The position numbers were made by a program, and so were the translations under genes. The notes beneath the pieces are model-generated. The model was not told the DNA's origin, did not search any database, and saw only the letters and a program-made list of their open reading frames with translations. Of a stretch of DNA of 64,000 nucleotides, positions 47,071 through 52,034 are shown one piece after another. Source of the DNA: Eledone cirrhosa (Eukaryota). Every line of letters begins with the position of its first letter. The first letter of the stretch is position 1. The DNA is taken from NCBI GenBank assembly GCA_964016885.1, contig OZ024747.1, positions 77,004,001-77,068,000 on the forward strand. The letters are read 5' to 3'.

Positions 47071-47330
47071 ATGTCAATTATAACCTGTTGACTTGTACTT
47101 CATGTTTGTGTGTATATATATATATATATATATATATATATATATATATATATATATATATATATATATATATATATATATATATACATATATACATATA
47201 TATATATATATATATACATATATATATATATATATATATATATATATATATATATATATATATATATATATATATATATATATATATATATATATATATA
47301 TATATATATATATATATATATATATATATA

Positions 47331-47863
47331 TACTAGAGCTAAATAAATAAATAAATAAATAAATGTATCATTGATACGTTCATTCAACGGATGTCCAACT
47401 ATCTATTTCCTCTCTCTATATATATCTCTATCTGTTTCTTTACATGAAGTTCTTCTCTTTATCTATCTTTCCATCTCTCTATTTTGTTGCATGCATTTCT
47501 TCTTTTTCTTCTTTTTCTTCGTTTTCTTTCTTTCTTTCCTTCTTTCCTTCTTTCTTTCTTTCTTTCTTTCTGTTTACAATTTTTCACTGCCAAATCAACT
47601 TTTTCAAATACAAGTCGATGTTGAACGGTATGTCAAATCTATTTATCTATAAAACTGTCTATATTGTATTTTGTCTGAGGAAGGCATAACATATTGTTAA
47701 TATGATATCCCTGAAATATATATAATGAAATAAATATGGTTTTATAAATATAGTTTCCATTTATTTAATATCGTAAATATACTCCAAATACTTGTTGAGT
47801 GCTTTTATATCAGTTATAAATATTTACTAGTTGTAACCCAACAATTTAAATATAACTTTCCAT
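47331..47863 (+). repeat. 5' pLTR
   Basis: Matches 51108-51641 except within the (TTTC)n tract. Confidence 0.95.
47661..47737 (+). ncRNA. Minimal type I hammerhead ribozyme in 5' pLTR
   Basis: UAUUUUGU-CUGAGGA-AGG c AUA a CAUAUU guu AAUAUG a UAU c CCU-GAAA-UAUAUA-UA^AUGAAAUA. Confidence 0.8.
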
Positions 47864-47910
47864 GTATCTTGCTCCAATACTGTTGAGCGCTTTATATTAT
47901 AACTGAAAAA

Positions 47911-49494
47911 ATGGAATTCTTTAAGATTACTTCCTCTTTAAAAGACATACCTCTACCTAGAAACAAAGACTTTATAAAACAATTAATAGATAAATCTGAC
48001 TCTTTTATAAGGAGAATCAGGTGGCGAGCATTCCACTTTGATAAATCTAATATAAATGAAAATGTCTCGGACTTAAACAAAGTTTTCAAATCTAAAAGAA
48101 ATCCACCCCCTAACAAACTTTTATCTGACTTTGAAAACGATATAATCTCTATCATACAAGGGGTCAAATTCAAGAGAAACTTCAAAGGCCAGGAATATCT
48201 GAAAGGCATTAAGGATAATATTGAGAGCTTAGAGAAAACTGAGAAGATCTTAGTGAAATCTGACAAGACCAACAACCTCTATGGAGTGCAGAAAGACATG
48301 TATAATGGCCTCATACTGAAGGAACTGAGGAAAAAGTACAAGGTAGCAGATAAGGCCGAGCTTGAGAAAATGAATGTCGAAGCATCTTGTATAATGCACG
48401 AGTTGGAAATTGAGAACAGAACACAACCTTTCGTGCCCAGGAAACCGAAGATCAATATGAAAGATCACAAAAGGAATTTTGAAAATGACTTGCCAGTTAG
48501 ATTGATCGCACCATCAAAATCGGACCTGGGCAAATTAAGCAAAAACATTCTTGACAGGGTGATACAGCAAATTAAGAACTTGGATTGTTTACCTAACCTG
48601 AGCTTGTGGAAGGGAACTGGAGAGGTTGTTGAGTGGTTTAAGCAAATTAAATATAACAATAATAATAAGTTTATTCAACTTGATATTGCTAACTATTATT
48701 CTTCTATTACCCCTAATCTACTAAATAAGGCACTAAATTACGCATTCAAACATACAGACCTAACTAGCAATGAAATGCACATTATATTATCGGCTAGGAA
48801 AATATTGATAGAATTTAATGACCAACTATGGACCAGAGCAGATAGAGATAGCAATTTTGACATTACTATGGGATCATCCGACTCAGCTCAGGTAACTGAC
48901 CTTGTGGGCTTATTTTTAATCAATTCGCTACATAGGAAAATACCTGGTACTACCGGAGGTTTATATAGAGATGACATGCTTTTACTTATTGATAATAATA
49001 ACTCTGAACTAAATAGAAGAAGAAAACAAATTACACAATTTTTTAATTACTTTAATCTTAAAATAGAAATTGAGAACAACCATAGAATAGTCAATTTCCT
49101 AGATATAACATTAAATCTCAACACATGTCTTCACTATCCTTTTCACAAGTTGAATGAAAACTTAAACTATGTCAGCTTTAACTCTAACCACCCCAGATCT
49201 GTCAAAAACACTATAGTAAACTCTGTTCAAAAACGTATCTCTAGAATCTCGTCTAATAGAAAGATTTTCGACGAAAAAGCCCAGTACTACAATGAAGCGT
49301 TAGCTAGAGCAGGATATAGTGATAAGATTATGTACATAGATAATGATAGACAAACTAAACAAAATAACAACTATTTTAATTACGGCAACAACCTTAACAA
49401 CTATAATAGAAAGCATTACAATAATTCCAAAAGCCAAAAAAGAAATAGAACTAGGAACATAATATGGTTTGCCCCCCCCCCCCTTTCTCACTAA
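47911..49494 (+). CDS. Penelope-like reverse transcriptase (N-terminal part of single ORF)
   Basis: KSDKT, PKINMKDHK, PVRLI, LDIANYYSSI, ITMGS, YRDD, VNFLDI, SNHP motifs; frame breaks in the C12 run at 49472-49483. Confidence 0.92.
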   Translation: MEFFKITSSLKDIPLPRNKDFIKQLIDKSDSFIRRIRWRAFHFDKSNINENVSDLNKVFKSKRNPPPNKLLSDFENDIISIIQGVKFKRNFKGQEYLKGIKDNIESLEKTEKILVKSDKTNNLYGVQKDMYNGLILKELRKKYKVADKAELEKMNVEASCIMHELEIENRTQPFVPRKPKINMKDHKRNFENDLPVRLIAPSKSDLGKLSKNILDRVIQQIKNLDCLPNLSLWKGTGEVVEWFKQIKYNNNNKFIQLDIANYYSSITPNLLNKALNYAFKHTDLTSNEMHIILSARKILIEFNDQLWTRADRDSNFDITMGSSDSAQVTDLVGLFLINSLHRKIPGTTGGLYRDDMLLLIDNNNSELNRRRKQITQFFNYFNLKIEIENNHRIVNFLDITLNLNTCLHYPFHKLNENLNYVSFNSNHPRSVKNTIVNSVQKRISRISSNRKIFDEKAQYYNEALARAGYSDKIMYIDNDRQTKQNNNYFNYGNNLNNYNRKHYNNSKSQKRNRTRNIIWFAPPPLSH

Positions 49495-50129
49495 ACATTA
49501 AAACCCACATCGCTAAACTATTTTTTAAAGCTCTTGATAATCGCTTCCCTAGAACACATAGGTATCACTCAATTTTCAATAGACATACTATAAAATTAAC
49601 CTACTCATCCACCAAAAATTTAGCACAAAATATTAATAGAATAAATAATAGGAACTTAAAACCTAGCGATAATAGCATAAATAATATACAAGTTAACAAA
49701 TGTAACTGTAGAGATAGATCTAAATGTCCGTTAAATAACAACTGCTTAGTTAAAAATATAATATACAATTGTAATGTTAAAACTGACTCTAATTCTTTTA
49801 ACTACGTCGGTTCCACATCGACGGAATTTAAACTTCGATATAATAACCACAAGAATTCTTTCACAGATCCAAGCAAAAAATCTTCAACAGCACTATCAGG
49901 CGTACTCTGGCAACTTAGGCTAGATAACGTTAGATATTCGACGGCTTGGAATATAGTCTCAAGAGGAATTCCTTTTAATTCATCCTCTGAGACATGTGAC
50001 CTCTGCGCAGAGGAGATATTCTTTATACTAAAATCTAAAAATTCCCTTAATCTACGGACAAATTTATTCAGTTGCTGCAAACATAGATTAAACTTAACTT
50101 TTAAATATAAATTTAAATTTAAAACGTAG
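49464..50129 (+). CDS. Penelope-like linker plus GIY-YIG endonuclease (frameshifted continuation)
   Basis: PPFSLNIKT, IFNRHTIKLTYS, CNCRDRSKCP..C, NIIY..YVGST..FKLRYNNH, CDLC..E, CKH. Confidence 0.9.
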   Translation: MVCPPPPFSLNIKTHIAKLFFKALDNRFPRTHRYHSIFNRHTIKLTYSSTKNLAQNINRINNRNLKPSDNSINNIQVNKCNCRDRSKCPLNNNCLVKNIIYNCNVKTDSNSFNYVGSTSTEFKLRYNNHKNSFTDPSKKSSTALSGVLWQLRLDNVRYSTAWNIVSRGIPFNSSSETCDLCAEEIFFILKSKNSLNLRTNLFSCCKHRLNLTFKYKFKFKT

Positions 50130-51107
50130 TATATTTAGTTTGATTTATAATTATTTGGGAAACTAGCCGATAAATCTTTCGATTTCTTCTTTTTATTCTT
50201 CTTTTTATTTTTATTTTTATTTAAACATTCTTCATGAAAAATTAAACTACCCTAAAAGTTGATGCTCCAAATATTTCGAATAAACGTTACACTAGATAAA
50301 CTTCTATATTAAATATAAGAACACATGTAGACCAAATGGGCATCCTAAACTTTTTGAAATGATTTTTGCTAGACGCGATTTGATAAATAATCTTTAGCTT
50401 TATCTGCTTTCGACTCTGATGCTTATAATGAACTTGGCAATATATTGTCAATTAATTTTTGATGGGTTGATCTTTGTGGTCGATTTGCGTGGCATATTAT
50501 GTTTCTATTATGTTTTTATTTTTATTATTGTAATATTTTCTAATATTTTTATTTTTAATATGTAATATTTTTTAGTTTTCTATTTTATTATTATTTATTA
50601 TTATTATTATTATTTTTTGTTTTTGTTTCTGATATTTTTTATTAATATATTGAAATCTGTTCTCTATTTCTGCTTGATAGATAATCATGTAGAGTAAAGA
50701 CAAGAATAGTATTGTTAAAATTAATATAGACTCTATATATATGTGTATATATATACACATATATGTATACTTAAATTTTTATAGCACAATGAGAATGTTC
50801 TCCGTGTGAAATAGGGGTTTGCAGAGTTGATCACGTAAATTCACATCGATGTTTGGAGTTATCATATAAACATATGAATTTTTAAAACTAAACATAAGAT
50901 CATTACTTTTCACACATTATGGATACGTGTCTCATTCAGGAATACTGATATTTACATTATAGTGCCTGGTTTTTATACATACTAATACTTCTACATTAAA
51001 ACATAGGGTTTTTAAATTTTGCCTCGCCTATGTCTGGTTACTTTTCATTTTTCTCTCTATGTAACGGCTGTTTTCTTTCCTAACCACATATATCTCCCTT
51101 ACATTAA

Positions 51108-51641
51108 TACTAGAGCTAAATAAATAAATAAATAAATAAATGTATCATTGATACGTTCATTCAACGGATGTCCAACTATCTATTTCCTCTCTCTATATAT
51201 ATCTCTATCTGTTTCTTTACATGAAGTTCTTCTCTTTATCTATCTTTCCATCTCTCTATTTTGTTGCATGCATTTCTTCTTTTTCTTCTTTTTCTTCGTT
51301 TTCTTTCTTTCTTTTCTTTCTTTCCTTCTTTCTCTCTTTCTTTCTTTCTGTTTACAATTTTTCACTGCCAAATCAACTTTTTCAAATACAAGTCGATGTT
51401 GAACGGTATGTCAAATCTATTTATCTATAAAACTGTCTATATTGTATTTTGTCTGAGGAAGGCATAACATATTGTTAATATGATATCCCTGAAATATATA
51501 TAATGAAATAAATATGGTTTTATAAATATAGTTTCCATTTATTTAATATCGTAAATATACTCCAAATACTTGTTGAGTGCTTTTATATCAGTTATAAATA
51601 TTTACTAGTTGTAACCCAACAATTTAAATATAACTTTCCAT
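51108..51641 (+). repeat. 3' pLTR
   Basis: Direct repeat of 47331-47863. Confidence 0.95.
51439..51515 (+). ncRNA. Minimal type I hammerhead ribozyme in 3' pLTR
   Basis: Identical to 47661-47737. Confidence 0.8.
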
Positions 51642-52034
51642 ATATATATATATATATATATATATATATATATATATATATATATATATATATATATACA
51701 CAAACATGAAGTACAAGTCAACAGGTTATAATTAACGTTTATTCATAATCGCTGGAGAGAGAGAGAGAGAGGGAGAGAGAGAGAAGAAGAAGAAGAAGAA
51801 GAAGAAGAAGAAGAAGAAGAAGAAGAAGAAGAAGAAGAAGAAGAAGAAGAAGAAGAAGAAGAAGAAGAAGAAGAAGAAGAAGAAGAAGAAGAAGAAGAAG
51901 AAAAGAACATGCCCATGCATGAACAACGACAACAAAAACAACGACGACATGCCTGCGAGAGATCCTCTACGTGGCGTCTCATTGTCCGGGAAATAGCAGC
52001 TAAATCTCACTTCAATCACGCATACCTTGTATGT

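What the first reader, a model, noticed from the sequence alone, without database searches (positions are those of the whole stretch)
47076..51733. Full-length PLE bracketed by an inverted, not direct, flank duplication
aattataacctgttgacttgtacttcatgtttgtg (47076-47110) is the exact reverse complement of 51699-51733. Each copy is separated from the element by self-complementary (TA)n. The geometry matches 33 kb: the 3' flank is mirrored at the 5' end.
Basis: partly seen in the sequence, partly recalled or inferred. Interest (0 to 1): 0.8.

Follow-up and report, generated by a model that had tools for sequence, protein, structure and literature searches.

The report
Penelope insertion with mirrored flank copy
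A recent Penelope-type jumping gene in an octopus-like genome carries a short backwards copy of the DNA beside its tail in front of its head, most likely because the new DNA strand folded back during insertion, a known kind of repair footprint that may be new for this group of elements.

Summary
The 35-bp inverted repeat is exact (39 bp with one mismatch). Between the arms lies a young Hydra-clade-type Penelope-like element (PLE): two 539-bp pLTRs, 99.3% alike, each with a minimal hammerhead, and RT plus GIY-YIG-type ORF split by a frameshift. The mirrored 'flank' is not unique DNA: reads show it is the 3' end of another multicopy, probably PLE, family (B). The right arm continues natively as B; the left arm is a truncated copy joined to an old (AT)5 tail. 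Best reading: a local templated inverted duplication, made when the cDNA 3' end snapped back onto the (TA)n of its own primer strand, copied about 38 nt, and was end-joined. Rivals: the same fold-back unlinked to this insertion, or a second B insertion. One further local mirror around PLE units was found in another animal's contigs (L003). The empty site was not seen, so timing is unproven. Snap-back junctions are described for R2, L1 and yeast breaks; my searches found none for PLE flanks. New variant of a known kind; interest 0.3.

The parts
46930..47072 (+). Old multicopy repeat (SINE-like; the label is recalled) ending in (AT)5 at 47063-47072; left remnant of the target
   Evidence: Many contigs align at 46997-47052 with loose ends on both sides in all four runs; part is shared with the X1 orthologous contig. 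Start coordinate approximate.
47073..47111 (+). Left arm: inverted copy of the right flank (35 bp exact core 47076-47110; C at 47075 is the one mismatch); no microhomology at its outer joint
   Evidence: junction present in X2 contig
47113..47331 (.). (TA)n, about 110 units with three CA interruptions; longer than the right tract
   Evidence: not bridged by any read test
47330..47867 (+). Left pLTR; 5' end shares ATA microhomology with the (TA)n; minimal hammerhead core at 47675
47911..49494 (+). RT part of the ORF (RWR, DKT, YRDD motifs)
49455..50129 (+). Second frame: linker CxCX5C, IYxC..YVG endonuclease, CxxC and CxH; frame changes at the C12 run 49472-49483
51107..51639 (+). Right pLTR with hammerhead core at 51453; ends at the distal ('tailed') 3' end of the family
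   Evidence: 39-kb relative shows both ends
51640..51697 (.). (AT)29, the primer-side target tract
51698..51755 (-). Right arm plus native continuation: about 58-nt 3' end of multicopy family B, 3' end facing the (TA)n, outer end about 1 nt from the inferred hammerhead cut site; followed by (GA)n/(GAA)n
32421..32524 (-). Hammerhead-bearing PLE end related to family B; fixes B's polarity
33039..33890 (.). The '33 kb' structure: canonical head-to-head PLE, untailed left arm, tailed right arm, 60-nt piece of another family in the centre; not a flank mirror

Best explanation
Before the event the site read: old repeat tail (AT)n, then a short family-B end pointing at the (TA)n, then (GA)n (inferred; the empty site was not seen). 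A Hydra-type PLE cut in the (TA)n and primed cDNA from the bottom strand next to B (established TPRT model; geometry shown). After 4.3 kb the cDNA 3' end, ending in TAT, paired with the self-complementary (TA)n of its own primer strand, was extended with slippage through the repeat and about 38 nt into B, was displaced, and was joined without microhomology to the (AT)5 on the left (inferred). The result is a mirror copy of the primer-side flank in place of a direct target duplication or the usual inverted pLTR. The polymerase (PLE RT or a host enzyme) is not determined. It is an insertion scar, with no function of its own.
For: Arms 38 of 39 identical, similar to the 3 differences in about 535 bp between pLTRs. 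Original arm is at the element's 3' end and the truncated copy at its 5' end, as the model requires. Both arms share GTG at the repeat edge, whereas 6 X1 contigs leave the window sequence after 47107, and 4 of 4 listed contig pieces over 47076-47120 differ at 5-6 of 45 letters (32 of 645 pieces were shown). B has no other copy in 64 kb. Inner joint lies in perfect (TA)n homology, outer joint has none, as in yeast fold-back insertions (PMC11724301, section 15). No empty mirror around a single tract among 134 (TA)n tracts in the window or printed for 173 tracts in 97 other loci. In L003 a locus-specific 200-bp flank is mirrored across PLE units, with 4 substitutions and one 31-bp duplication, while other members of that repeat are 69-89% alike. 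Snap-back of cDNA onto nearby target DNA is reported for R2 (PMC11371274) and a fold-back junction holding a full-length cDNA for L1 (PMC11702581).
Against: No empty allele: the X1 contig appears to end near 47053. The 33-kb case, the only in-window parallel offered, is not one. Young inverted duplications with no fresh element between the arms exist in this window (54231-54268/54603-54640; 45119-45624), so host fold-back needs no PLE. Young PLE families do give identical ends at unrelated tracts: 6 of 3,103 cross-contig pairs and a 41-nt exact match between two copies of this element's own family. B is far more abundant in X2-X4 than in X1 (depth ratio 357-562 vs 13), which may mean recent B activity. 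Of 3 inner-repeat mirrors in the other loci only 1 (L003/L059) is a flank copy; L056 and L139 are element ends; in L003 the event that made the copy is ambiguous. The left (TA)n is almost four times the right one, which needs slippage or later expansion.
Confidence: 0.5

Rival explanations
1. Same fold-back, different time: a break in the (TA)n was repaired by host snap-back synthesis, giving arm-(TA)n-arm; the PLE later inserted into the central repeat (or the copy was added later at a separate break).
For: Element-free young inverted duplications at 54.2-54.6 kb (38 bp exact, beside a long (TA)n) and 45.1-45.6 kb; (TA)n is self-complementary; yeast precedent needs no retroelement; one arm mismatch at 47075 allows the arms to be older than the pLTRs.
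Against: 0 of 134 tracts in the window and none printed for 173 tracts elsewhere show an empty mirror, though such palindromes may be unstable or lost in assembly; orientation fits the coupled model (a one-in-two chance here).
Confidence: 0.22
2. Two family-B insertions in opposite orientation in one (TA)n tract (independent, or tail-to-tail from one self-primed RNA), with the PLE inserted between them.
For: B is multicopy and ends at (TA)n; the left arm looks like an ordinary 5'-truncated copy; nested clusters and identical young ends occur in PLE-rich tracts; tail-to-tail products of RNA self-priming are mentioned in PMC3846280; a same-family tail-to-tail pair exists at 57.2/61.1 kb.
Against: That pair differs at 7 of 54 and other same-family neighbours at 3-5 of 44-55; listed B pieces differ at 5-6 of 45; at 7-14% divergence P(at most 1 mismatch in 38) is 0.24-0.02; the right copy has a 3-nt deletion against the loose-end consensus just outside the arm; shared GTG; no third B copy in 64 kb.
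Confidence: 0.13
3. One reading: the arms are the outward-pointing ends of a pre-existing head-to-head mini element or MITE with an internal TATA tract that the PLE later targeted.
For: This architecture is real: L139 has arms around an internal (TA)n, later inserts in the centre, a 30-nt tail on one arm and a 13-bp direct duplication. The right arm here is about 20 nt longer than the left, like a tail.
Against: Two ordered blocks (8 and 7 nt) shared between B and the hammerhead-bearing end at 32.4 kb place B's 3' end at the inner (TA)n (1 match, 0 in 100 shuffles; blocks chosen after the fact). The right arm alone aligns to that end only weakly (150 of 2,000 shuffles as good). No direct duplication outside the arms.
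Confidence: 0.07
4. 3' transduction: a read-through RNA carried (UA)n plus the B end from a donor locus, and the left arm is the usual inverted 5'-truncated partner that stopped inside the repeat.
For: Inverted truncated partners are standard for PLEs (PMC8557442); host capture between pLTRs is known (PMC3846280).
Against: PLE RT starts at fixed internal sites (PMC11167929); the right arm ends at B's own inferred boundary; no donor seen (none could be searched).
Confidence: 0.04
5. Assembly or read artefact across long (TA)n.
For: The (TA)110 link to the pLTR was not tested; only one run bridges the left junction and it may be the source sample.
Against: That contig matches 910 bases with 0 differences; arms differ at two positions, unlike a duplicated read.
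Confidence: 0.04

Closest known systems
[quoted passage not shown] 2021, PMC8557442; Hydra-1_Obim in its supplement)
   Same: RWx, DKT, CxCX5C, no CCHH, CxxC and CxH, canonical hammerhead, (TA)n target, partial-tandem pLTRs
   Different: Unit is 3,777 bp (clade 'generally' under 3 kb); ORF frameshifted; 5' side carries mirrored flank instead of an inverted pLTR. No tree with the reference set was built.
Canonical PLE head-to-head insertion with tail (PMC8557442 Fig. 2 legend; PMC3846280; PMC11167929)
   Same: An inverted segment sits at the 5' side; seen in ordinary form at 33, 35.4, 39.2 and 7.6 kb of this window
   Different: There the inverted arm is element sequence with 3' ends outward; here it is target-side DNA and contains no element-A sequence
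'Snap-back' 5' junctions of R2 insertions (PMC11371274)
   Same: cDNA 3' end primes DNA synthesis on the cDNA or, less often, nearby target DNA before the 5' joint forms; often after full-length cDNA
   Different: Engineered R2 in human cells at rDNA; here a natural PLE, with (TA)n as the pairing site; which strand R2 copies was not seen in the passages read
L1 fold-back junctions and local inverted duplications (PMC11702581); LINE 5' extra nucleotides from flanks (PMC4245944)
   Same: Self-annealing of the cDNA end to the primer-side chromosome end; flank-derived bases at 5' joints
   Different: L1 fold-backs there are chromosome-scale; here synthesis stopped after about 38 nt and the break was closed
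Short fold-back inverted duplications at double-strand breaks in yeast (PMC11724301)
   Same: Size range (5-34 bp mostly, up to over 150), microhomology at the primed end, end-joining at the other
   Different: No retroelement involved

Membership tests
Hydra-clade PLE | RWK-type N-terminal motif and DKT in place of DKG | tested here: met
   RWR at 37, DKT at 118; W38, D118, K119 invariant in 37 relatives; definition
Hydra-clade PLE | C-terminal GIY-YIG endonuclease with CxCX5C linker, no CCHH, with CxxC and CxH | tested here: met
   Motifs; 38% identity to the C-terminus of P0003. Profile support is weak: no Pfam hit for the window's frames, GIY-YIG in 3 of 37 members at E 0.012 or worse, no solved-structure hit
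Hydra-clade PLE | Canonical hammerhead in the pLTR | tested here: met
   Both core motifs, 8-bp stem I, stems II and III, AUA triplet in both pLTRs; Rfam listing showed no hammerhead among the 150 of 388 rows displayed; cleavage not assayed
Hydra-clade PLE | Insertion into (TA)n | tested here: met
Hydra-clade PLE | Short (generally under 3 kb), single ORF | tested here: not met
   Unit 3,777 bp; frameshift at 49472-49483. A tendency in the paper, not a strict criterion
Hydra-clade PLE | Groups with Hydra references in an RT tree | not testable with these tools
   Reference proteins were seen only as text in a supplement; blocks agree by eye
Canonical PLE inverted-pLTR architecture | Inverted 5' arm is the element's own 3' end | tested here: not met
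   The arm has no match in the element
MITE / TIR element | The inverted repeat marks both termini of a repeated unit, with a direct target duplication outside | tested here: not met
   Other copies continue past the outer end with a shared sequence (7-12 contigs per run); no direct duplication outside. Paired arms elsewhere could not be tested
Snap-back / fold-back 5' junction | Inverted copy of primer-side DNA, homology at the primed end, little or none at the joined end | tested here: met
Snap-back / fold-back 5' junction | Copy absent from the pre-insertion allele | tested here: inconclusive
   No run showed the empty site; no genome held

The most novel reading that the evidence does not exclude
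(TA)n-targeting PLEs have a regular second way to close their 5' end: because the target is its own complement, the finished cDNA loops back to its primer strand and leaves an inverted 'mirror' target duplication, with the telomerase-related RT slipping to lengthen the repeat. Mirror duplications would then be a clade-level footprint that reads out strand order and end-joining in PLE integration, and a source of small inverted repeats and long (TA)n tracts in these genomes.
Probability: 0.12. Interest if true: 0.6.

Novelty: new variant of a known kind. Interest (0 to 1): 0.3.

Why it matters
How PLEs join their 5' ends is unresolved: PMC11167929 leaves the steps after cDNA synthesis unvalidated and PMC8557442 names the inverted structures and microsatellite bias as open. 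A coupled mirror duplication would show that the cDNA end is free, can prime on the target strand and is closed by end-joining, and it gives a countable genomic signature. As a single insertion, with timing unproven and the mechanism known from R2, L1 and break repair, it is a modest lead and not a new system.

Tried and rejected
33 kb as a second example: first accepted from arm geometry, rejected when the arms proved to hold a hammerhead and a tailed/untailed pair. GTC at 47073-47075 as a templated hairpin insertion: possible, but one substitution in the copied GTT explains it as well. X1 as an empty-site witness: the contig's 137 extra letters fit the 144 window bases to 47053, so it probably just ends there. 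Ratio of depth between bins 47060-47094 and 47095-47120 as a test of B's termini: fits several piece layouts, not used. Head-to-head reading of B (after L139): lowered. No hits or no use: whole genome, metagenome scans with the arm and the RT, viral contigs, Rfam, Pfam and PDB sequence searches, B in published supplements (wrapped lines can hide matches), earlier notes on this genome. The census scripts are imperfect: one search missed 33 kb, searches missed L059. No structure or complex prediction was run, as neither bears on the question.
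Full report
OBSERVATION. 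The 35-mer at 47076-47110 is the exact reverse complement of 51699-51733 and has no other hit in the window at up to 8 mismatches. With one mismatch at 47075 the repeat is 39 bp, 47073-47111 against 51698-51736. The inner sides are (TA)n of about 110 and 29 units. Outside, the left arm abuts (AT)5 at 47063-47072 and the right arm runs on for about 20 bases to (GA)n. A contig from run X2 matches 46196-47105 without a difference, so the left junction is in reads; X2-X4 are one sample, possibly the assembled one. The link across the long (TA)n was not tested.

THE ELEMENT. Direct repeats 47330-47867 and 51107-51645 are 99.3% alike over 539 bp; the three real differences lie in a (TTTC)n stretch. 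Each holds a minimal hammerhead with an 8-bp stem I. The coding region runs 47911-50129 and changes frame at a C12 run. It has RWR, DKT, YRDD, CxCX5C, IYxC..YVG without CCHH, CxxC and CxH, the features that define the Hydra clade, nearly all of whose families insert into (TA)n (PMC8557442 section 11). The best named homologues are from Argonauta hians, 35-39% identical, and the supplement lists an octopus Hydra family, so the host is probably an octopod (inference). Profile libraries give little support, and no tree with the reference set was made. A relative at 39.0-39.45 kb shows two 3' ends 93 nt apart; the element here ends at the distal one.

WHAT THE 35-MER IS. Laying four runs on 46080-47120 showed summed depth of 1,143-2,029 over 47095-47120 against 2.7-3.6 for the single-copy contig in X2-X4, and 186 against 14.4 in X1 (not a copy number). 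In each run 7-12 contigs continue outward of 47076 with a consensus that matches the right flank at 51734-51755 apart from a 3-nt deletion and a substitution (24 of 293 loose-end rows were shown). So the right arm is the inner part of a multicopy family B and continues natively; the left arm is truncated. The 4 listed pieces spanning 47076-47120 differ at 5-6 of 45 letters (32 of 645 pieces shown; contigs collapse identical copies, so this list leans to variants). Six X1 contigs leave the window sequence after 47107, where both arms read GTG. An 8-nt block of the consensus and a 7-nt block of the arm recur in order just downstream of a hammerhead at 32.4-32.5 kb (1 match, none in 100 shuffles; chosen after the fact; the right arm alone is not significant, 150 of 2,000). 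By that homology B's 3' end faces the inner (TA)n and the right copy starts about 1 nt after the hammerhead cut site (inference). The arms are therefore tail-to-tail, not outward-pointing termini.

THE 33-KB CLAIM. The arms 33039-33270 and 33586-33819 are 99.1% alike, but each holds a full minimal hammerhead; the left ends at (AT)10 46 nt later and the right at (AT)12 120 nt later. This is the ordinary head-to-head PLE with one tailed arm (PMC8557442; PMC3846280), like 7.6, 35.4 and 39.2 kb. It does not support flank mirroring.

OTHER CASES. In the window, a 38-bp exact inverted copy at 54231-54268/54603-54640 lies beside a long (TA)n with no fresh element between the arms, and a 250-bp-arm palindrome at 45119-45624 is centred in a repeat. 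No single (TA)n tract of 134 has mirrored unique flanks; the two best values fall inside a TA mosaic at 24.9 kb. A profile scan found relatives on animal-like contigs in bacterial genome bins (14 loci). In 97 loci (1.19 Mb, chosen for PLE or repeat content; 173 tracts, 43 hammerhead-to-(TA)n ends) three pairs had the repeat on the inner side. L056 is two PLE ends. L139 is a PLE's own ends around an internal TATA tract with a 13-bp direct duplication. L003 (= L059) is a local mirror: about 200 bp of flank, 4 substitutions and one 31-bp duplication between arms, against 69-89% for other members of that repeat; a second repeat crosses the end of the left arm, so the right arm is the copy. Several PLE units lie between those arms, so the responsible event is unclear. 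As a control, 6 of 3,103 tract edges from different contigs matched with 0-4 mismatches, so young families can mimic a mirror.

MECHANISM. Shown: arm identity, which arm is native, homology at the inner joint, none at the outer joint, ATA microhomology at the pLTR 5' end. Established: EN cleavage and target-primed cDNA synthesis; a PLE protein cuts and extends both strands and starts at internal RNA sites (PMC11167929). Inferred: the cDNA end paired with the (TA)n of its own strand, copied through it with slippage and about 38 nt into B, and was end-joined to the left (AT)5. I give this 0.50; the same fold-back at another time 0.22; two B insertions 0.13; a prior head-to-head unit or MITE 0.07; transduction 0.04; artefact 0.04. 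A local copy of some kind thus has about 0.7. Against double insertion: same-family neighbours in the window differ at 3-7 of 44-55 letters, though two copies of this element's family share 41 exact bases.

COMPARISON AND NOVELTY. It works like R2 snap-back junctions, where the cDNA end primes on cDNA or less often on nearby target DNA (PMC11371274), like L1 fold-back junctions containing a full-length cDNA (PMC11702581), flank-derived extra bases at LINE 5' joints (PMC4245944) and short fold-back insertions at yeast breaks (PMC11724301). Searches found no report of a mirrored target flank for PLEs; the library lacks most subscription papers, including the 2005-2006 PLE reviews cited in these papers, which I did not see. 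What I saw of each paper: PMC8557442 passages, section 11, supplement searches and one supplement part; PMC11167929 abstract and parts 1-2 of 4; PMC3846280 passages and Discussion; PMC4245944, PMC11371274, PMC11702581, PMC6431247 passages; PMC11724301 abstract and section 15; PMC13282606 passages and supplement search; the L1 long-read preprint 10.1101/2024.08.27.596794 as a listing only. Figures and preprint supplements were not seen and may show such junctions. The SINE label for 46930-47072 and for the repeat at 45 and 54 kb is recalled, not from a call.

VERDICT. Real repeat, real young PLE, most likely a local fold-back copy of the primer-side flank. The supporting parallel was mistaken and coupling to the insertion is unproven. 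New variant of a known kind; interest 0.3; boldest reading 0.12 likely, worth 0.6.

Noticed in passing
window 39000-39452: Perfect head-to-head palindrome of an 86%-identical relative of the element, centred on a short self-complementary site; arms end 56 and 149 nt after the hammerhead core, a 93-nt tail, longer than the usual 30-40 nt.
   Followed up: partly
window 33039-33890, 35338-35522, 7537-7713: Three more head-to-head PLE mini-insertions with one arm roughly 70-80 nt longer; the 33-kb one has a 60-nt piece of another family between (CA)n and (TG)n at its centre.
   Followed up: partly
window 54231-54268 and 54603-54640: Exact 38-bp inverted copy of an old repeat edge placed at the far end of a long (TA)n, with no fresh element between; looks like a templated repair insertion.
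   Followed up: partly
window 45119-45624: Palindrome with 250-bp arms and a 6-bp spacer centred inside a dispersed repeat, running about 80-110 bp beyond it; 9 differences, mostly near the centre.
   Followed up: partly
window 51698-51755: The right family-B copy appears to start within 1 nt of the inferred hammerhead cut site, as if copied from the 3' cleavage product; published in vitro work found cleavage unnecessary.
   Followed up: partly
window 57144-57198 and 61153-61207: Tail-to-tail pair of one repeat family, 87% alike, each facing a microsatellite; a natural control for independent insertions.
   Followed up: yes
L139 4510-6780: PLE insertion whose pLTR has an internal TATA tract that varies in length, serves as a truncation point and takes later insertions; 13-bp direct duplication.
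   Followed up: yes
G001 (L003, L044-L147): A bacterial genome bin that holds many animal-like contigs with PLEs and microsatellites (38 matches to a Hydra-type protein); homologues labelled as bacterial probably come from such contamination.
   Followed up: partly
window 9675-10796 (-) and 62412-62918 (+): Fragments of other retroelements: one with a weak zf-RVT match, one with no Pfam match.
   Followed up: no
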